From IMG/VR virus record IMGVR_UViG_2579778660_000001: a DNA stretch of 64,000 bases. One strand, 5' to 3'. Both the position numbers and the translations under genes were made by a program. Position 1 is the stretch's first letter; each line of letters begins with the position of its first letter. The notes beneath the pieces were generated by a model, which ran no database searches, was not told where the DNA came from, and saw only the letters and a program-made list of their open reading frames with translations. This document shows, in pieces, positions 1,770 to 15,285 of the stretch. The DNA is from a virus (Duplodnaviria; Heunggongvirae; Uroviricota; Caudoviricetes).

Positions 1770-2807
1770 TTACCAGAGCTTTGCGGCGCGCTGCGTTTGG
1801 GGGAATGTGTATCCGTAACGTTCTTCGATTGCTTTGCCGTATTTTTTACGCGCTTCATTCAGTTTGATGCCGGTCAGGTCGTCTCCAGAGGCCATCATTA
1901 CGTCTAACAATTCCAGATCCATTTTATCCAGCCTTGCCATTGCTTCACGCGATGTACGAATCTTACGTTCAATGATATGGCGAATAGCCGGATCGGCATC
2001 CTCCAGCATCTTAGCTGATTTCTGCTTAAGGTTTTCGTTGCGGATATCGATGTTCCTTAAGATATACGACTTCGCAACGTAGCTTGGCTGATGTTTTTCC
2101 AGGTCACGAACACGATATAAGCTAAAGTCGCCGAGAAGGCTGCAAGGCACCGATTCGACGCCAGAATAAATTGTAATGCTACGGCGTTCACCAACATTAT
2201 TGACAACGGGGATCGTTGTCTTCGGTAGTTTTGCGAAAACGAATGCGCCATGTGCGCCAACTCTAAAGCGAGAAAGGGCATTGCTGCCTTCGATGTTTGT
2301 TGTCAGCACAACATCTGTATATGCCTCTTTACGCGCCCGGTAGACCTCGCCTTCAGGCTCAGCTTCAAAGAAGCGCTGTTCTTCTTCAAGAGCACCTACG
2401 ATTTGAGAAAAAACCCTATTTTTCAGGCTTTTCTTTATGATTTTGTCGTATTTTTTGAGCAATTGTTCACGTGTAAATGTACGTGTTGTTGTAGCGCTTT
2501 GCACAACAACATGCGTGCTTTGATTGGTGTCCTCAATGATGAATGGGATCGGAGAATATACAGACTCAACAATGTTAGACGCTTTGCCGTCAGCATTACG
2601 GCACAAGTCAACAAAGGCTTTCCATTCTGCGAGGCACTTTTCAGCTTCTTCTAGTACATTTTGGTCGTGTGTTAGTGCAACGTGGCGGAATTCCTCGCCA
2701 GCATAACTGGTATCATGGAAAACAGAGTTTGCGACCACCAGCTCTTTCCACCGTTCAGCGGTTTGCAGGAACCGTTTGTACTCTTTCTCGATCGACTTCT
2801 TACTCAT
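1770..2807 (-). CDS. hypothetical protein (345 aa), operator motif directly upstream; possible immunity/regulatory function
   Basis: Long ORF convergent with terL; TTTTCTAACAT operator copy 20 bp upstream of start; no recognisable catalytic motif. Confidence 0.6.
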   Translation of the reverse strand: MSKKSIEKEYKRFLQTAERWKELVVANSVFHDTSYAGEEFRHVALTHDQNVLEEAEKCLAEWKAFVDLCRNADGKASNIVESVYSPIPFIIEDTNQSTHVVVQSATTTRTFTREQLLKKYDKIIKKSLKNRVFSQIVGALEEEQRFFEAEPEGEVYRARKEAYTDVVLTTNIEGSNALSRFRVGAHGAFVFAKLPKTTIPVVNNVGERRSITIYSGVESVPCSLLGDFSLYRVRDLEKHQPSYVAKSYILRNIDIRNENLKQKSAKMLEDADPAIRHIIERKIRTSREAMARLDKMDLELLDVMMASGDDLTGIKLNEARKKYGKAIEERYGYTFPQTQRAAKLW

Positions 2808-2821
2808 TATTCCTACTCGAT

Positions 2822-2836
2822 TTAGTTTTCTAACAT
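2822..2836. promoter_or_regulatory. operator-like motif TTAGTTTTCTAACAT (copy 1)
   Basis: Same 15-mer recurs at 20805-20819; core TTTTCTAACAT recurs at 7 loci. Confidence 0.55.
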
Positions 2837-3204
2837 AAAATCCCTATGACAAATCTATGTCGAATAACAGAGTGAGTAAAGGATCGAACTATGATTTTTT
2901 TGTCATCAACTTTAGAAAACCAACCGTTGAAACCACACTTCGCAAATTAAAGACCATGAAGGCAACGTGTTACTGTCCATCATCAATCTATGATGGATTA
3001 CAAAAAAAATCGGCATTTTATAACTTTAAATAATGGGGATTATTTAAAGTTAGGCTATAATCATGTGTAGATGAACAGTATTGACATCACTGAAAATACG
3101 TGCCTCGAATCAAAGGCTTGTATTTTGAAAATTAACTTATAGCTACCCTGTCATTTTTATATTTTTCGCGTAGCGTCATATGTATATAGAGGCGAAATAG
3201 TTTC

Positions 3205-4233
3205 ATGGGAGAATTAATTATCTCTGGCAGTTCCGGTGGTTTTCTGCGCAACATTGGCAAAGAGTACCAGGAAGCCGCAGAAAACTTTATGCGGTTCATG
3301 AATGACCAGGGGGCTTATGCGCCGAATACTCTGCGCGACCTCCGGTTGGTGTTTCATTCCTGGGCGCGCTGGTGTCACGCTCGCCAGCTCGCCTGGTTCC
3401 CGATCTCACCAGAAATGGCCCGCGAGTATTTTCTTCAGCTGCATGATGCCGATCTGGCTTCGACCACCATTGATAAGCACTACGCCATGCTGAACATGCT
3501 GCTTTCGCATTGTGGCCTTCCGCCACTTTCGGATGATAAAAGTGTTTCTCTGGCTATGCGGCGCATCCGGCGCGAAGCGGCAACTGAAAAAGGCGAACGA
3601 ACAGGCCAGGCTATACCGCTGCGGTGGGACGATCTGAAACTGCTCGACGTCCTGTTGTCCAGGTCAGAACGGCTGGTGGACCTGCGCAACCGGGCTTTTC
3701 TCTTTGTTGCATACAATACGCTGATGCGTATGTCGGAAATCTCGCGTATTCGTGTAGGAGATCTGGACCAAACAGGTGACACTGTCACGCTACATATTTC
3801 ACACACGAAGACAATAACGACCGCCGCCGGGCTTGATAAGGTGCTTTCCCGTCGCACTACCGCTGTGCTGAATGACTGGCTGGATGTTTCCGGGCTTCGC
3901 GAACATCGTGACGCAGTGCTGTTCCCGCCGATACACCGTAGCAATAAGGCCAGGATCACGACAACGCCCCTTACTGCACCTGCAATGGAGAAAATATTCA
4001 GCGACGCCTGGGTGTTGCTGAATAAAAGAGATGCTACGCCAAACAAAGGGAGATACCGGACGTGGACCGGGCATAGTGCACGCGTCGGGGCCGCTATTGA
4101 TATGGCTGAAAAGCAGGTGTCTATGGTGGAGATCATGCAGGAAGGAACCTGGAAGAAACCGGAAACACTTATGCGGTATCTGCGCCGTGGCGGTGTGTCT
4201 GTGGGGGCTAATAGCCGCCTGATGGATTCGTAA
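3205..4233 (+). CDS. cre: Cre-type tyrosine site-specific recombinase
   Basis: 342 aa; similar along whole length to P1 Cre as recalled (e.g. LNMLLSHCGLPPLSDDKSVSLAMRRIRRE, NTLMRMSEISRIRVGDL, WTGHSARVGAAIDMA). Confidence 0.9.
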   Translation: MGELIISGSSGGFLRNIGKEYQEAAENFMRFMNDQGAYAPNTLRDLRLVFHSWARWCHARQLAWFPISPEMAREYFLQLHDADLASTTIDKHYAMLNMLLSHCGLPPLSDDKSVSLAMRRIRREAATEKGERTGQAIPLRWDDLKLLDVLLSRSERLVDLRNRAFLFVAYNTLMRMSEISRIRVGDLDQTGDTVTLHISHTKTITTAAGLDKVLSRRTTAVLNDWLDVSGLREHRDAVLFPPIHRSNKARITTTPLTAPAMEKIFSDAWVLLNKRDATPNKGRYRTWTGHSARVGAAIDMAEKQVSMVEIMQEGTWKKPETLMRYLRRGGVSVGANSRLMDS

Positions 4234-4237
4234 ATTA

Positions 4238-4250
4238 AATTTCTAACACA
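4238..4250. promoter_or_regulatory. operator-like motif variant AAATTTCTAACAC (copy 2)
   Basis: Between cre stop and the 4307 operon start; 9/11 match to core motif. Confidence 0.4.
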
Positions 4251-4306
4251 TCTTTTTAGATTAACGCCTTTGATGTAAAGTACCCTCGCCTATTTAGGAG
4301 GGTGCT

Positions 4307-4651
4307 TTGCAGAGTCAAATCACGGAATCAAGACGCTTCAAGGTGGATGGTTACACCGTAACCTTCGCTGCTGGTGTTAAGAACAGTCATGCTGTCGTTG
4401 TGTTCGGCATCATGACCGGGCTTGAGGCCGTCCCTGTGTTTACCCTCGAAAAAAACTGGCGAAATCTGGAGGAAGCAGAAAGCTACGTCCGGAAAGTAAC
4501 CATCATTGCCGCCGAAAAACTCCTGGCCCACTATCAGGAAAATTATCGCACTATGGTCGAGAAGATTAATCTCGCTTTCACTCGCCCCACTACCGGCTTT
4601 ATTGCACCGGATACTAATGCAGGTCGCTATCCTGCAAGGGGGCGTCGGTGA
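4307..4651 (+). CDS. hypothetical protein (114 aa)
   Basis: TTG start with AGGAGG RBS 5 nt upstream; first gene of operon. Confidence 0.55.
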   Translation: MQSQITESRRFKVDGYTVTFAAGVKNSHAVVVFGIMTGLEAVPVFTLEKNWRNLEEAESYVRKVTIIAAEKLLAHYQENYRTMVEKINLAFTRPTTGFIAPDTNAGRYPARGRR

Positions 4652-5124
4652 AAACTTATTACACATCTCTGAATTGTTACCCGTCTTCCTATCCAGAATT
4701 ATCCGGGAAGCTGTTAGCTCTATTAGCTAAAGCACCTACGGAATGGTTTAAGCCAGTCGTTATCAATCCACACTTCCTGGATTACGGATCTGTTCGCACT
4801 CGTAACGAACTCAAAAACCTACTGGCGCATGGATTCATTCGACACCGTGCCGCGAAAGGCTATCAGTTAGCGATTGCGCCAGAAGAGGCTGTGCGGCTAT
4901 TCGCATATCGTGACAGCCAGACAAAAGCTCGGGTAATAGCTCAAATACTTCATAACGGCAGCACCTATGCCCGCCAGTTTGGCGGCGACACGTCGCAGTT
5001 CTTGCGGGCGGTGCGATCGCTGGAGGAGCAAGGAGTTATTGAAAGTTCCTGTCTTCCTGTTCCTACCGTTCCACATATCAAACGTCGGGTTTACACCTTC
5101 ACGCAGAGAGCTAAAAAACAATGA
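4648..5124 (+). CDS. hypothetical protein (158 aa)
   Basis: GTG start after AGGGGG; 4-nt overlap with upstream gene. Confidence 0.55.
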   Translation: MKTYYTSLNCYPSSYPELSGKLLALLAKAPTEWFKPVVINPHFLDYGSVRTRNELKNLLAHGFIRHRAAKGYQLAIAPEEAVRLFAYRDSQTKARVIAQILHNGSTYARQFGGDTSQFLRAVRSLEEQGVIESSCLPVPTVPHIKRRVYTFTQRAKKQ

Positions 5125-5615
5125 TTTACGTAAAAGTGAAACGCCTACATCCGGCAGCAAAACTTCCAGCTTATGCCACCTCCGGATCGGCGGCGATGGA
5201 TTTTGAGGCTGTTGAAATAAAACCATGCGTCGATAGCAATGGTGCAATTTCCTCAAGCTGGTGGGTGTATACCGGACTGGCTATGGAGATCCCGCCCGGC
5301 TGGTGTCTGAAACTCTATCCGCGATCCGGATTGGGCTGCAAAAAACATACTCGCCTGGCTAACTGCGTAGGAATTATCGACTCCGATTATCGCGGCGAAA
5401 TCATGGCAAAACTGATTACTGATCCCGGCGGGGAAGGCGTTTGTCTCAAGCCTGGAATGGCTGTCATGCAAGGAATTTTTGAACGTGTTGAACAAGTCTC
5501 ACTAGTCGAGGTTGAGGAACTCAACGAAACGGAACGTGGTGCTGGTGGCTTTGGTAGCACATCGGAAGGCCACTTTGAAATTAAGCGTTCACCGCTTCAG
5601 TACGAAAAGTTATAA
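5121..5615 (+). CDS. dut: dUTP pyrophosphatase (dUTPase)
   Basis: Motifs YATSGSAAMD, PRSGLG, GIIDSDYRGE, RGAGGFGSTS; overlaps upstream stop (ATGA). Confidence 0.85.
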   Translation: MIYVKVKRLHPAAKLPAYATSGSAAMDFEAVEIKPCVDSNGAISSSWWVYTGLAMEIPPGWCLKLYPRSGLGCKKHTRLANCVGIIDSDYRGEIMAKLITDPGGEGVCLKPGMAVMQGIFERVEQVSLVEVEELNETERGAGGFGSTSEGHFEIKRSPLQYEKL

Positions 5616-5629
5616 GCAGAGAAAAGACT

Positions 5630-6331
5630 ATGAATAACATGGCAACGAAAGAGCTTTTTAAGTTCCTTCCCAAATACAAAGCTCACAAAAACGTTAGTGC
5701 ATCGAAAATCAAAAATGTTGTTATTTTCGGAGTAACTGATGCCCCACTTTGGGGCAGCATCGAACTCGTTGAACCAAAAGGGGCAACAGTTTGTGTTGAC
5801 GCAATGTTTTTACAAAAACACCGACCAAAAACTGGCGGGTATCTGATCGTTTATGAAAACGGTTATCTGTTCTATGCCCCGGAGAAACCATTTGAGGAAC
5901 GCTATGGCCTGGTTAACGACGTCTCCAAAAATGGAACCACGGTCATCATTACGGATGACAACGGCGAGATGATTAATCTTACCGGGAGCGTAACTATTTC
6001 TGCTGGTGGCATCACCACCCAGCAAGAAGAAATCGACCTTGAAGCAGCCGACTTTTCTGACGCGCTGATGTGGCTGAAGGATGGCAAGAAAGTTGCCCGG
6101 CGCGGGTGGAACGGCGAAAACCAATTCTGCTGGCTGGTTCCAGACAAACACGGCGCTTCAAGACTAACCCCTATAAAACATGCCATCAATGGAGAGCTTG
6201 AAATCAATTTCGACTCTCCTCTTGCTCCTTATGGTACGCATTTCGCTTTGAAAAATGCACAAGGTGTAGTTGTTCCGTGGGTGCCTTCTGTAGGCGACTT
6301 ACTGGCATGTGACTGGTTTGTAGTGGAGTGA
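5630..6331 (+). CDS. fusion protein: unknown N-terminal domain + C-terminal DUF2829 (Tad2-like) domain
   Basis: C-terminal FSDALMWLKDGKKVARRGWNG ... VVPWVPSVGDLLACDWFVVE matches DUF2829 hallmarks. Confidence 0.7.
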   Translation: MNNMATKELFKFLPKYKAHKNVSASKIKNVVIFGVTDAPLWGSIELVEPKGATVCVDAMFLQKHRPKTGGYLIVYENGYLFYAPEKPFEERYGLVNDVSKNGTTVIITDDNGEMINLTGSVTISAGGITTQQEEIDLEAADFSDALMWLKDGKKVARRGWNGENQFCWLVPDKHGASRLTPIKHAINGELEINFDSPLAPYGTHFALKNAQGVVVPWVPSVGDLLACDWFVVE

Positions 6332-6337
6332 TTTAAC

Positions 6338-7138
6338 GTGGAAAATACTAAAGCAATTCAATACCGCTTGCGTAATGGCCTGCTGGTGGCTGTTAACGCC
6401 GACATGTCACTGCCGTTTGACACGATTGAACGTACTATCATGACGTATCTCGGCTTTAATGAAGAGCTGAATGAAGAGCATGGCGTAGCTATATGGAGTG
6501 ATGCAGGAAGCGGCGTTCATCGTTACATCACCGCCAGGGGCAAAGACTACTCTCTGGAAGAACTGTTTACCCTTGCACAGTCTTTCGAATGTGTAGCATT
6601 AGACATGTTTAATGATCCTGCTATAGCGCAACGACTTATACGCGAGCTTGGGCTATCCGTTACACCAATTATCTTTAAGAATGGCAGCCTGACTGGCACA
6701 TGGCGCGTAGAACGCATCTCAAACTACCTTCCATATAACCGACAGTTAAATGGAGTAATCTCCGGCGTTAATCAGCCCGTAGCGTGTGAAAATGTAAACC
6801 TGGTTGCCGCTGTTTTGGCAACCGCATGTCGTGTTATCGGTTTGGCTAAACAGGCTTTTATTCATTTCCCAAATGGTGCAGAAGGTAGCGCAGAGATTAT
6901 CGCGTGTGATTTCGAATTTACCTGGATGCTACGCGAATATCTGGACCAAACAGTGTTCCGCGCCGAAGAACTGGATATGTATATCACGTCAACGATTCCT
7001 GATGATGTACGTGCTGAAGCAATCGCCACAGCAAGGGCCAAATGCCGTGCGGCGATTGCAGAGCAGGCCAAAGAAGAACCGTCCGATGAAGCCGTGGCTG
7101 ATGTTGAAGCAGAGGTAGCGGAGGATGCTGACGCCTAA
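6338..7138 (+). CDS. hypothetical protein (266 aa) with acidic C-terminal tail
   Basis: GTG start with GGAGTGA RBS; last gene of operon. Confidence 0.6.
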   Translation: MENTKAIQYRLRNGLLVAVNADMSLPFDTIERTIMTYLGFNEELNEEHGVAIWSDAGSGVHRYITARGKDYSLEELFTLAQSFECVALDMFNDPAIAQRLIRELGLSVTPIIFKNGSLTGTWRVERISNYLPYNRQLNGVISGVNQPVACENVNLVAAVLATACRVIGLAKQAFIHFPNGAEGSAEIIACDFEFTWMLREYLDQTVFRAEELDMYITSTIPDDVRAEAIATARAKCRAAIAEQAKEEPSDEAVADVEAEVAEDADA

Positions 7139-7189
7139 AAACATCACCGAATTAGCTGGCTGACAGCAGAAAAAATCATTGAGTGATAG

Positions 7190-7222
7190 TAGGAAGCCCG
7201 CCTGGTTGAGCGGGCTTCTTTT
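7190..7222. terminator. bidirectional intrinsic terminator
   Basis: AAGCCCGCctggttgaGCGGGCTT followed by CTTTTC; between convergent 6338-7138 (+) and doc (-). Confidence 0.55.
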
Positions 7223-7602
7223 CAAATATTGGGACCAAATAATTCACGTAGTTTTTCCGCTACTGAAGATACGGGGATTTCACCAGTTGCGGCCCCCACC
7301 GCTAGTTCCACCAGCACGGGAGAATCATATACCTGTATGCCGTTACGGCGTAGAAATAGCAGCGCACTGTTTAGCGCGGTACGCTTATTGGCATCATTGA
7401 ATATATGCCCTCTCGCCGTAGCTACCAGGTAGGTGGCGGAGACTTCGAAAAGGTCGGTGATCTCTTCGTAGGCAACTCTGGCCTGAACTCTACCGATAAT
7501 GGCCTCTGCCCTACCCGGATCTGACATTCCCGGCAGGCCGCCGTAGCGGCTTATATTCGCATCATGAAGCGCAATAAGTTCTTCCGGTGATATATGCCTC
7601 AT
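7222..7602 (-). CDS. doc: Doc toxin (Fic-family kinase), P1-type
   Basis: 126 aa; Fic motif HIFNDANKR; close to P1 Doc as recalled. Confidence 0.9.
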
Positions 7603-7823
7603 TATCGGTTAACCAGTTCCTTGTTGGTGGAGTCCAGGGTGTCAAACAGGGATGCAAATTCAGCATCCAGCGCCGCTTTTTTGTAGGCTTCAAAAGTAGC
7701 CTTGCTGACAATTACTGCTGGCTCTCGGCCTCTGCGGGTGATTTCAACCTCTTCCCCGGCTTCAACATTGTTGAGCACTTCAGAAAGGTTGCCGCGCGCG
7801 GTACGGAAGTTAATGGATTGCAT
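7602..7823 (-). CDS. phd: Phd antitoxin, P1-type
   Basis: [49 protein letters not shown]...; ATG at 7823 with GAGGTG RBS; ORF track start (7829) is an upstream GTG. Confidence 0.9.
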
Positions 7824-7830
7824 AAACACC

Positions 7831-7854
7831 TCATGTACTCGTTATGTGTACACA
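7831..7854. promoter_or_regulatory. putative Phd/Doc operator palindromes
   Basis: TGTGTACACA perfect palindrome (7845-7854) plus ATGTAC half-site in phd promoter region. Confidence 0.4.
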
Positions 7855-7895
7855 ACTATAAACTTCACAGGTATAAAGCACCAGCACTTTGCAGC

Positions 7896-8285
7896 TTAAA
7901 TCACCGGACAATCGTCAAATTCCCCACTTCGGACATCATTGATGACATGAGTGATCACACCAAAAACAGCATTACTCCCCGTGCATCCATCGTCATCCAC
8001 TGGTAACGCCTCTTTCCTCCCGGTGCTTAAATCCTCCAGGTGCTGGCGCGGATACTTCCTGTATCTCTTTATGCGATATTCACCCTCCATAGCGCACACA
8101 AGCAGAGAACCATCAACCGGAGTAAGCGAGGAATCAACCACCAGCAAAGCACCCTGCAATATTCCCTCACGGTGATGGCTATCAGCTGCCCGCATGAAGT
8201 AGGTTGCTGATGGATGCCTGATTAGTTGCTGATCAAGAGAAATTCGGCTTTCAACATAATCCGCCGCAGGAGAAGGGAAGCCCAT
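7896..8285 (-). CDS. humD: HumD (UmuD'-like S24 peptidase-fold protein)
   Basis: 129 aa; LexA/UmuD C-terminal-domain-like sequence; LexA box immediately upstream. Confidence 0.75.
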   Translation of the reverse strand: MGFPSPAADYVESRISLDQQLIRHPSATYFMRAADSHHREGILQGALLVVDSSLTPVDGSLLVCAMEGEYRIKRYRKYPRQHLEDLSTGRKEALPVDDDGCTGSNAVFGVITHVINDVRSGEFDDCPVI

Positions 8286-15253: not shown

Positions 15254-15285
15254 ATGTTAGAAAACTAAAATCAACGTTCTAACGT
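15254..15285. promoter_or_regulatory. operator-like motifs (copy 3: ATGTTAGAAAA plus variant CGTTCTAACGT)
   Basis: Perfect reverse-complement of core motif at 15254-15264; second half-site 15275-15285. Confidence 0.5.

What the first reader, a model, noticed from the sequence alone, without database searches (positions are those of the whole stretch)
4238..7138. Operator-controlled early operon with a DUF2829 (Tad2-like) fusion protein and a dUTPase
The 233-aa protein carries a C-terminal domain with DUF2829 hallmarks (the family of the Thoeris anti-defence sponge Tad2) fused to an unassigned ~140-aa N-terminal domain. It sits in a five-gene coupled operon with a dUTPase and three unknown proteins, downstream of cre where P1 carries its variable res/mod region. 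This is a plausible anti-defence cassette with an unusual domain architecture.
Basis: partly seen in the sequence, partly recalled or inferred. Interest (0 to 1): 0.6.

Follow-up and report, generated by a model that had tools for sequence, protein, structure and literature searches.

The report
Tad2 sponge fused to OB-like domain
A D6-type phage-plasmid of E. coli carries, in a five-gene early operon after its Dre recombinase gene, a protein whose C-terminal half is a clear Tad2-family immune-signal sponge domain. This was already known from annotation. Its N-terminal half is a widespread, unnamed small domain that elsewhere is mostly found fused to the known sponge families, so it is a testable candidate for a new anti-defence module.

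Summary
The window is about 97.5% identical to phage D6. After dre lie five tightly packed genes: orf117-like, orf116-like, dUTPase, a 233-aa DUF2829 protein and an IsaA-like protein. They are preceded by a copy of a repeated intergenic motif, probably the D6-type C1 operator, and followed by a terminator.

This is not new at the annotation level. RefSeq calls the protein DUF2829, and a 2025 survey found Tad2 in 93% of D6-like phage-plasmids. The architecture is common: 243 plasmid records hold the cassette.

Three things are new.
- The "140-aa N-terminal domain" is really an ~85-aa module plus a linker. The module is remotely related to the OB fold of phage L Dec and has no Pfam family. It occurs in about 1,745 cluster representatives. 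Its commonest fusion partners are Tad2, Sequestin, Acb4 and Acb2/Tad1.
- The Tad2 insertion loop is swapped as a cassette between otherwise identical genes.
- The Tad2 fusion and IsaA travel as a pair, and the fusion is absent from P1.

Nothing shows that the other four genes act in anti-defence. All functions are inferred.

The parts
4233..4249 (+). Candidate D6-type C1 operator (AATTAAATTTCTAACAC), starting at the last base of the dre stop codon and 58 nt before the first gene
   Evidence: The motif family is over-represented. The other copies lie between genes, upstream of c1, ref/orf88, pdcB-like, orf52 and hrdC/gene 5. The site is conserved in D6 and p92_MLI108-1. P1 offers a precedent in Omat, which sits at the 3' end of ref. 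Binding has not been tested.
4269..4319 (+). RNA hairpin whose 3' arm contains the Shine-Dalgarno (4296-4301) and the TTG start (4307-4309) of the first gene
   Evidence: strand folding gives -25 kcal/mol, z -4.6, with 0 of 200 shuffles folding as well. The same stem is present in D6 and p92_MLI108-1.
4307..4651 (+). orf117-like gene, 114 aa, function unknown
   Evidence: phrog_1968 4.1e-48, full length. No Pfam, NCBIfam, PADLOC or PDB hit. Equals D6 orf117.
4648..5124 (+). orf116-like gene, 158 aa, function unknown
   Evidence: phrog_6669 2.2e-97. A narrow family of 9 clusters in Enterobacteriaceae. A profile search against PDB found nothing significant.
5121..5615 (+). dUTPase (trimeric type)
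   Evidence: PF00692 1.7e-14. NCBIfam NF001862 121.5 bits against a cut-off of 103. The motifs GIIDSDYRGE and RGAGGFGSTS are visible in the translation.
5630..6331 (+). 233-aa fusion protein: OB-like N-domain, beta-rich linker, Tad2 domain
   Evidence: It is 100% identical to cluster P0001, 'DUF2829 domain-containing protein [E. coli]'.
5663..5917 (+). N-terminal ~85-aa module (aa 12-96), a small beta-barrel remotely related to the OB fold of phage L Dec; no Pfam family
5918..6037 (+). Beta-rich linker (aa 97-136), including INLTGSVTISAG, which resembles the start of Dec's beta-helix stalk
   Evidence: phmmer aligns aa 54-126 to Dec 51-122 at E 0.008. pLDDT is only 58-67. The segment is replaced by unrelated linkers in distant homologues.
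6038..6328 (+). Tad2 (DUF2829) domain, aa 137-233
6140..6249 (+). Swappable insertion cassette inside the Tad2 domain (beta2-beta5 loop; allele A, 33 aa)
   Evidence: The gene is at least 99% identical to NZ_CP116989 except for this stretch, which cannot be aligned. Three alleles occur among phage-plasmids. The equivalent insertion binds cyclic dinucleotides in HgmTad2 (10.1101/2023.11.15.567273).
6338..7138 (+). IsaA-like gene, 266 aa, constant downstream partner of the Tad2 fusion; function unknown
7192..7223 (+). Intrinsic terminator hairpin between the operon and the convergent doc/phd genes
   Evidence: GGAAGCCCGC-CTGGTTGA-GCGGGCTTC followed by TTTTC.

Best explanation
The region is the early, repressor-controlled operon that follows dre in D6-type phage-plasmids.

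Its fourth gene encodes a modular counter-defence protein. The C-terminal Tad2 domain is expected to tetramerise like SPO1, Hgm and Mo Tad2. It would then sequester TIR-made signals (cADPR isomers or His-ADPR) and possibly cyclic nucleotides. That would blunt Thoeris-type, and perhaps CBASS- or Pycsar-type, abortive infection when the element infects a new cell or is induced.

Which ligands it binds is probably set by the beta2-beta5 insertion, which is exchanged as a cassette among otherwise identical plasmids. The N-terminal OB-like module is an accessory part. It is most likely a second ligand-binding or target-binding unit of the same counter-defence function, because its relatives are fused to four different sponge families.

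The dUTPase is read as an ordinary nucleotide-sanitising enzyme, co-expressed early. The orf117-like, orf116-like and IsaA-like proteins are unassigned. IsaA is a constant neighbour of the fusion and may work with it.

Shown here: gene structure, domain identities, fold, motif conservation, distribution, cassette mosaicism and fusion statistics. Inferred: oligomeric state, ligand binding, anti-defence activity, operator function and timing of expression.
For: Tad2 domain identity:
- Pfam and PDB sequence matches.
- W160, W217, S220, D223, D228 and W229 are invariant across 91 homologues.
- The HgmTad2 gcADPR contacts W21/N22/G23 and W87/L88/S90/T92/D93 correspond to W160/N161/G162 and W217/V218/S220/G222/D223. 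This mapping goes through the MoTad2, SptTad2 and SPO1 Tad2 alignments, because the HgmTad2 alignment itself was not printed.

Family function is established in papers 10.1101/2023.05.01.538930, 10.1101/2023.11.15.567273 and 10.1101/2025.08.24.671296.

Selection acts on the Tad2 part. Deletion variants (D6 orf114; the dUTPase-Tad2 fusion P0059) always keep it.

Early, repressed expression is plausible:
- The operator-type motif sits in front of the operon.
- In Punavirus relatives the same gene pair follows ssb. In P1, ssb carries the C1 operator Ossb.

The cassette swap is shown.

N-domain association with sponges is shown. Tal et al. (10.1101/2025.07.12.664507) proved the same fusion logic for Sequestin.

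Survey data: Tad2 was detected in 93% of D6-like and 56% of P1-like elements.
Against: No experiment exists for this protein or any close relative.

One gcADPR-contact position differs: HgmTad2 T92 corresponds to G222 here.

The insertion is modelled at pLDDT below 50, so nothing can be said about its pocket.

The window's N-domain departs from 5 of 17 near-invariant family positions. It is deleted in the D6 reference and in P0059, so it may be dispensable or decaying here.

No promoter was found between the operator and the first gene. A strong hairpin buries the first start site, so the regulation may be more complex than operator control.

The Dec similarity would allow a structural role for the N-domain.

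No link to defence was found for the other four genes.
Confidence: 0.65

Rival explanations
1. The N-terminal half makes this a Dec-like capsid decoration or other virion-associated protein. An OB domain plus a short beta-helix stalk would anchor a Tad2 domain on or in the particle, so that the sponge is present from the moment of infection.
Confidence: 0.07
2. The N-terminal module is inert here: a decaying passenger or a mere solubility or oligomerisation tag. The protein acts simply as an ordinary Tad2, and the fusion statistics reflect shared genomic neighbourhoods and frequent in-frame gene fusions in accessory regions.
For: An in-frame deletion removes aa 21-99 in the D6 reference. The dUTPase-Tad2 fusion P0059 arose by deletion at an AGG microhomology. 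The window's copy deviates at 5 of 17 near-invariant positions. Such fusions clearly arise easily in this locus, as P0010 and P0059 show.
Against: The module is kept intact in most of the plasmid alleles aligned, and also in SJ46 and Ro157c2YLVW at about 64% identity, so there is purifying selection over that distance. The family has a strongly conserved motif set across about 1,745 representatives and often stands alone at 85-95 aa. Its partners include four unrelated sponge families in different orders.
Confidence: 0.25
3. The DUF2829 domain acts as an anti-CRISPR (AcrIIA7-like) or has some function unrelated to signal sequestration.
For: AcrIIA7 entries are among the PDB matches: 8kbi, deposited as 'Inhibitor of Type II CRISPR-Cas system', and 9kzr, AcrIIA7.
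Against: Li et al. could not reproduce Cas9 inhibition by HgmTad2/AcrIIA7 and showed that it is a sponge (10.1101/2023.11.15.567273). From general knowledge, not tested here: type II CRISPR-Cas is not a feature of E. coli or Salmonella.
Confidence: 0.03

Closest known systems
Tad2 sponges with solved structures: MoTad2 (9eib), SPO1 Tad2 (8sme/8wje), HgmTad2/AcrIIA7 (8kbi), SptTad2 (8wjd)
   Different: Those proteins are stand-alone, at 86-104 aa. This one carries about 136 extra N-terminal residues. The position equivalent to HgmTad2 T92 is Gly here. The ligand and oligomeric state are untested. The 33-aa insertion has no detectable similarity to the characterised ones.
Multi-sponge fusion proteins (Acb4-Tad2 of Pasteurella phage Pm86; Tad2-Sequestin; Sequestin-Acb4) described by Tal et al. 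2025 (10.1101/2025.07.12.664507)
   Same: A Tad2 domain is joined to another small phage domain in one polypeptide. More distant relatives of the window protein have N-domain + Tad2 + Sequestin (P0088, P0100, P0162).
   Different: The partner here is not a known sponge and has no Pfam family, so it was invisible to that paper's Pfam-based fusion screen. Its activity is unknown.
Phage L decoration protein Dec (6e3c)
   Same: There is remote sequence and fold similarity of the OB-like domain and of the first strands that follow it.
ssb-(DUF2829)-isaA locus of Punavirus phages SJ46, Ro157c2YLVW and RCS47; P1 isaA
   Same: The same two-gene pair occurs there: the fusion at about 64% identity and IsaA at about 47%, with the same 6-nt spacing. 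In P1 the ssb gene that heads this locus has a C1 operator.
   Different: The location differs (after ssb rather than after dre-orf117-orf116-dut). P1 itself lacks the fusion gene. In RCS47 it is cut by IS26.
P1 C1 operators such as Omat and Ossb
   Same: An asymmetric ~17-bp site is repeated at early promoters around the genome. It is sometimes paired, and sometimes placed at the 3' end of the preceding gene.
   Different: The sequence is unrelated to the P1 consensus ATTGCTCTAATAAATTT, as expected for a heteroimmune phage. No binding data exist.

Membership tests
Tad2 / DUF2829 (PF11195) sponge family | Sequence match to the family model above the curated threshold | tested here: met
   77.4 bits against a cut-off of 25, E 1.3e-21, aa 141-232 covering model positions 2-73 of 73.
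Tad2 / DUF2829 (PF11195) sponge family | Fold: N-terminal helix followed by an antiparallel sheet with a variable insertion | tested here: met
Tad2 / DUF2829 (PF11195) sponge family | Conserved gcADPR-contact residues (HgmTad2 W21/N22/G23; W87/L88/S90/T92/D93) | tested here: met
   The corresponding residues are W160/N161/G162 and W217/V218/S220/D223. Only T92 differs, becoming G222 (Ser in MoTad2). The mapping goes through the MoTad2, SptTad2 and SPO1 Tad2 alignments; HgmTad2 matched but its alignment was not printed.
Tad2 / DUF2829 (PF11195) sponge family | Homotetramer with pockets at protomer interfaces | not testable with these tools
   Only monomer prediction was available.
Tad2 / DUF2829 (PF11195) sponge family | Binds and sequesters an immune signal; rescues phage from Thoeris, CBASS or Pycsar | not testable with these tools
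   This needs biochemistry and plaque assays.
Trimeric dUTPase | Match to the curated equivalog model, and catalytic motifs | tested here: met
   NF001862 121.5 bits against 103; TIGR00576 119.2 against 102.55. Motifs GIIDSDYRGE and RGAGGFGSTS are present.
Dec-type capsid decoration protein | OB-fold domain homologous to Dec | tested here: inconclusive
Dec-type capsid decoration protein | Encoded and expressed with head genes; binds capsids as a trimer | tested here: not met
   The gene lies in the dre-dut early operon behind a repressor motif. Capsid binding was not testable.
C1-repressor-controlled operon (P1-type immunity) | Copy of the repressor's operator at the operon's start | tested here: inconclusive
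   The P1 consensus is absent. A D6-specific repeated intergenic motif is present at 4233-4249 and upstream of c1. Binding is untested and no promoter was found.
Immune-signal sponge (generic), for the N-terminal module | Short phage protein, often stand-alone, found fused to known sponges | tested here: met
   Many of the representatives listed are 85-96 aa. Partners are Tad2 9, Sequestin 5, Acb4 4 and Acb2/Tad1 1, of 142.
Immune-signal sponge (generic), for the N-terminal module | Homo-oligomer with positively charged ligand pockets; binds a signal | not testable with these tools
   No multimer or ligand modelling was available. There is no solved relative other than Dec.

The most novel reading that the evidence does not exclude
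The ~85-aa N-terminal module is the founding example of an as-yet unnamed family of phage counter-defence domains. Its motif is PxYxCHKxVxAxKI...KHxPxxGGYxVxYEDGYxSxSPAxAFExGY, and it has a Dec-like OB fold. It would be either a new sponge for an immune signal or a binder of an immune protein. It is spread through about 1,700 protein clusters and was missed by earlier 'fused-to-a-sponge' screens because it has no Pfam entry. The window protein would then be a two-headed inhibitor. The cassette-swapped Tad2 insertion would be a second, recombination-driven way of retuning its ligand range.
Probability: 0.3. Interest if true: 0.8.

Novelty: new variant of a known kind. Interest (0 to 1): 0.5.

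Why it matters
Phage-plasmids of the P1/D6 type are common in pathogenic E. coli, Shigella and Salmonella. How they get past signalling-based immunity affects their spread.

The Tad2 part adds little, because it is already scored by annotation pipelines.

The value lies in two concrete, cheap-to-test leads.
- The first is a widespread unnamed domain whose main known partners are four different sponge families. The same reasoning recently yielded the Sequestin family.
- The second is a natural set of near-isogenic Tad2 alleles that differ only in the insertion loop. This is an ideal series for mapping what sets ligand specificity.

Tried and rejected
Searches that found nothing:
- The P1 C1 operator consensus gave 0 hits. 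The 'operator' had to be redefined from repeats within the window.
- The sigma-70 promoter scan of 2800-7900 gave 0 sites.
- PADLOC, NCBIfam and Pfam on the three unknown proteins gave nothing above noise.
- PDB sequence searches with orf117-like, orf116-like and IsaA-like proteins, and with an orf116 profile, gave nothing significant.

Hypotheses rejected:
- The N-domain is not one of the recently described sponge families. It had no sequence hit to any solved chain other than Dec. Its Pfam partners Tad2, Sequestin, Acb4 and Acb2/Tad1 occupy separate regions of the fusion proteins. Lockin is described as absent from INPHARED phages, whereas this domain is present in 42 of them. TadIV-1 is a helical dimer.
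- The anti-CRISPR reading of DUF2829 was rejected on published evidence.

Resources not available:
- Sauer & McDermott 2004.
- The supplements of the two Sorek-lab preprints.
- The afdb50 fold library.
Full report
**What the window is.** Bases 3000-8000 match Escherichia phage D6 at 97.5% identity. The gene order is that of D6: pacB, c1, rox, dre, orf117, orf116, dut, orf114 (DUF2829), an IsaA-like gene, then the convergent doc/phd and humD. The recombinase upstream is therefore Dre of a D6-type phage-plasmid, not P1 Cre. The 233-aa protein is 100% identical to an E. coli protein cluster seen on a 91.5-kb contig (P0001).

**Checking the observation.**
- The five ORFs are at 4307-4651, 4648-5124, 5121-5615, 5630-6331 and 6338-7138.
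- They are joined by GTGA and ATGA overlaps and by gaps of 14 and 6 nt.
- They are closed by a GC-rich hairpin with a T tract at 7192-7223, just before the convergent doc gene.
- The dUTPase call is solid: PF00692 1.7e-14, and the NCBIfam equivalog at 121.5 bits against a cut-off of 103.
- The DUF2829 call is solid: PF11195 'Tad2-like' 1.3e-21 over aa 141-232, and phmmer E 3.6e-13 to 2e-7 against MoTad2, SptTad2 and SPO1 Tad2, with HgmTad2/AcrIIA7 at 9e-7 and a second AcrIIA7 entry at 1.8e-6.

**The operator.** The P1 C1 operator consensus is absent from the whole window. This is expected for a heteroimmune phage.

The sequence that begins at the last base of the dre stop codon, AATTAAATTTCTAACAC (4233-4249), belongs to a repeated family.
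- Five matches to the 17-mer at up to 3 mismatches were found, against 0.24 expected.
- The core TT[TA]TCTAACA occurs eight times, against 0.27 expected in second-order Markov simulations, with a maximum of 2 in 200. The 4239 copy is a one-mismatch variant of that core.
- In the window, copies lie 19 nt upstream of c1 (2826) and at 15255, 20158/20178 (an inverted pair), 20809, 30619/30639 (an inverted pair) and 41256.
- In the D6 annotation, every copy that could be placed lies between genes. They sit between ref and orf88, just past the ref stop, upstream of the pdcB-like gene, upstream of orf52, and between hrdC and gene 5.

This is the pattern of P1's scattered C1 operators. P1 also has a precedent for an operator at the 3' end of the preceding gene: Omat overlaps the end of ref and controls mat. 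The site is conserved in D6 and in plasmid p92_MLI108-1. I therefore accept 'operator-controlled' as likely but unproven.

Two caveats apply. No sigma-70-like promoter passed the scan anywhere in 2800-7900. In addition, a strong RNA hairpin buries both the Shine-Dalgarno and the TTG start of the first gene. Its inner stem is 4274-4287 paired with 4298-4311, at -25 kcal/mol and z -4.6. Translation of that gene may therefore be gated separately.

**The Tad2 domain in detail.** Across 91 homologues, A140, F142, S143, A145, W148, K150, G152, R157, W160, W217, S220, D223, D228 and W229 are invariant. Li et al. list the HgmTad2 residues that hold gcADPR: W21/N22/G23 on the diphosphate, and W87, L88, S90, T92 and D93 around the riboses. 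Mutating them abolishes binding (10.1101/2023.11.15.567273). Going by the printed alignments to MoTad2, SptTad2 and SPO1 Tad2, these correspond here to W160/N161/G162 and W217/V218/S220/G222/D223. HgmTad2 matched as well, but its alignment was not printed. Only the Thr position differs, and it is Ser in MoTad2.

The family is experimentally established as a sponge.
- SPO1 Tad2 binds gcADPR as a tetramer (10.1101/2023.05.01.538930).
- HgmTad2 also binds cyclic dinucleotides through its beta2-beta5 insertion.
- MoTad2 binds His-ADPR and cUMP, and other homologues block type IV Thoeris and Pycsar (10.1101/2025.08.24.671296).

Function here is inferred from this homology.

**Is the architecture unusual?** Not within its group.
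- The cassette occurs in 243 PLSDB plasmids, 111 of them with at least 80% coverage. Nearly all are ~90-kb non-mobilizable plasmids of E. coli, Salmonella and Shigella.
- Full-length relatives at about 64% identity are in the Punavirus phages SJ46 and Ro157c2YLVW. A copy truncated by IS26 is in RCS47.
- RefSeq labels the protein DUF2829.
- A 2025 survey of clinical phage-plasmids reports 'Tad2 AcrIIA7 (anti-Thoeris)' in 93% of D6-like and 56% of P1-like elements (10.1101/2025.09.12.675607).

The core of the finding is thus already known at the annotation level.

**What the N-terminal part is.** It is not one 140-aa domain.
- The model shows a compact beta-rich domain over roughly aa 10-95, with pLDDT 84-92 for the blocks spanning aa 11-90. 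A less confident beta-rich linker follows (aa 97-136, pLDDT 58-67).
- A search of 1.84 billion cluster representatives with aa 1-143 found 1,745 proteins at E<=1e-3. Almost all matched aa ~12-96 only.
- Many of the 149 representatives listed are stand-alone proteins of 85-96 aa. Others carry the module at either end or in tandem.
- The module has a sharp signature: PxYxCHKxVxAxKI ... KHxPxxGGYxVxYEDGYxSxSPAxAFExGY.
- No Pfam family covers it: 0 of 42 members gave a meaningful hit.
- A profile of 42 members hits a single solved protein, the OB-fold domain of the phage L decoration protein Dec (6e3c), at E 2.1e-4.
- The window protein alone aligns aa 54-126 to Dec 51-122 (E 0.008). That alignment includes INLTGSVTISAG against Dec's ITLTGAVTGSAS at the start of its stalk.

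The domain is therefore a remote relative of the Dec OB fold.

**The lead that matters.** Scanning 142 representatives that carry this module against Pfam gave these partner domains: Tad2-like (9), crAss001_48 PF21825 (5), Phage_gp49_66 PF13876 (4), Acb2/Tad1 hairpin (1), and then single cases of eight other families (DUF4406, DUF2158, RyR, AlpA, DUF551, HA1, P68HR, DUF7130) (examples).

Tal et al. 2025 (10.1101/2025.07.12.664507) showed three relevant things.
- PF13876 is the sponge Acb4.
- Tad2 and Acb4 are often fused.
- PF21825, picked only because it was the Pfam family most often fused to Tad2 and Acb4, is a new sponge, which they named Sequestin.

Their screen used Pfam families, so a domain without a Pfam entry could not surface. 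By the same logic the N-terminal module is a candidate counter-defence domain.

It does not correspond to any of the seven sponge families listed up to April 2026: Tad1, Tad2, Acb2, Acb4, Sequestin, Lockin and TadIV-1 (PMC13243611).
- It matches no solved chain except Dec.
- Lockin is reported absent from INPHARED phages, whereas this module is in 42 INPHARED records.
- TadIV-1 is a helical dimer.

In Klebsiella phage SopranoGao and Pseudomonas phage Dolphis the gene lies in runs of small early-type ORFs next to regulators, not among head genes. This is so even though Dolphis annotates it as 'capsid decoration protein'.

There is evidence against over-reading this for the window itself.
- Its copy departs from 5 of 17 near-invariant positions: V73I, D77N, S81F, S83A and G91R.
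- The D6 reference carries an in-frame deletion of aa 21-99.
- One lineage has fused dut directly to the Tad2 part, losing the module (P0059).

**Cassette swapping in the Tad2 insertion.** Among phage-plasmid homologues the stretch between 'FCWLV' and 'ALKNAQ' comes in three forms.
- Allele A, the window: 33 aa, PDKHGASRLTPIKHAINGELEINFDSPLAPYGT.
- Allele B, D6 and, going by cluster sizes, most others: EGQYPARMEAIKGYFPGDLVPYGAY.
- Allele C: a short LAGSVNLHGIHVPYGDH form in which GWNG has become EWKG.

At the DNA level the window and plasmid NZ_CP116989 are at least 99% identical through the whole gene, except for gene positions 511 to about 620 (window 6140-6249), which cannot be aligned. That is a clean recombination mosaic. 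It lies exactly on the segment that forms the cyclic-dinucleotide pocket in HgmTad2 and that Li et al. describe as the variable part of the family. The model is unreliable there (pLDDT below 50), so ligand predictions are not possible.

**The neighbours.** The IsaA-like gene follows the fusion gene at 6 nt in the window and in SJ46 and Ro157c2YLVW, where the pair sits after ssb. In P1, ssb is under the C1 operator Ossb. In P1 itself isaA follows ssb directly and the fusion gene is missing. P1 IsaA aa 60-320 is 47% identical to the window's protein.

The IsaA family is narrow: 14 clusters, all on Enterobacterales contigs, mostly of phage-plasmid size. It folds confidently (pLDDT 82) but has no recognisable relatives. 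The orf116-like and orf117-like proteins match only PHROGs of unknown function and nothing else. There is therefore no evidence that the operon as a whole is an anti-defence cassette. Only one of its five genes has such a link.

The best explanation (confidence 0.65) is an early, probably C1-repressed operon whose fourth gene encodes a Tad2-type signal sponge with an added OB-like module.

The rivals are as follows.
- The module is an inert or decaying passenger (0.25). This is compatible with the main explanation for the Tad2 part.
- The protein is a Dec-like virion protein (0.07).
- The protein is an anti-CRISPR (0.03).

The most novel reading not excluded is that the N-terminal module founds a new family of counter-defence domains (probability about 0.3).

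Noticed in passing
window 4269-4319: A stable RNA hairpin (-25 kcal/mol, z -4.6) pairs the Shine-Dalgarno and TTG start codon of the first operon gene with upstream sequence. The same stem is present in D6 and p92_MLI108-1. It may be a translational gate or a processing site.
   Followed up: partly
window 2826, 15255, 20158/20178, 20809, 30619/30639, 41256: These are further copies of the putative D6-type C1 operator (core TT[TA]TCTAACA, 8 copies against 0.27 expected). Two occur as inverted pairs 20 nt apart. In D6 the corresponding sites lie upstream of c1, ref/orf88, pdcB-like, orf52 and between hrdC and gene 5.
   Followed up: partly
window 6140-6249 versus L007 (NZ_CP116989) 3402-3490: A ~110-nt cassette inside the Tad2 domain is completely replaced between genes that are otherwise at least 99% identical. 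Three alleles circulate. One of them (allele C) also changes GWNG to EWKG.
   Followed up: yes
L001 (phage D6) 2594-3034; proteins P0059 and P0010: Several rearranged forms of the gene exist. The D6 reference has an in-frame deletion of aa 21-99. P0059 is a dUTPase-Tad2 fusion made by a deletion at an AGG microhomology. P0010 has a tail-fibre repeat (PF03406) in front of the N-domain.
   Followed up: partly
L008 (phage P1) 21051-24132: P1 has ssb-isaA-IS1-isaB and no OB-Tad2 gene. The first 56 codons annotated for P1 isaA are the same as the annotated N-terminus of SJ46 gp048. These upstream extensions are therefore probably annotation artefacts of a shared leader region.
   Followed up: partly
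window 6338-7138: The IsaA-like protein is predicted confidently (pLDDT 82, two alpha/beta domains plus an acidic tail) but has no fold relatives in PDB or BFVD. The family is restricted to P1/D6-type phage-plasmids and is always next to the Tad2 fusion when the fusion is present.
   Followed up: partly
L009 (Pseudomonas phage Dolphis) 3986-4480: A gene carrying the N-domain is annotated 'capsid decoration protein' although it lies at the end of a run of small early-type ORFs. The label is probably transferred from the remote Dec similarity.
   Followed up: no
window ~7139-7221 versus L001 3818-4051: From coordinate offsets, the window appears to lack most of the small pdcA-like ORF that D6 has between the IsaA-like gene and doc; the window is about 150 nt shorter there. 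This was not checked by alignment.
   Followed up: no
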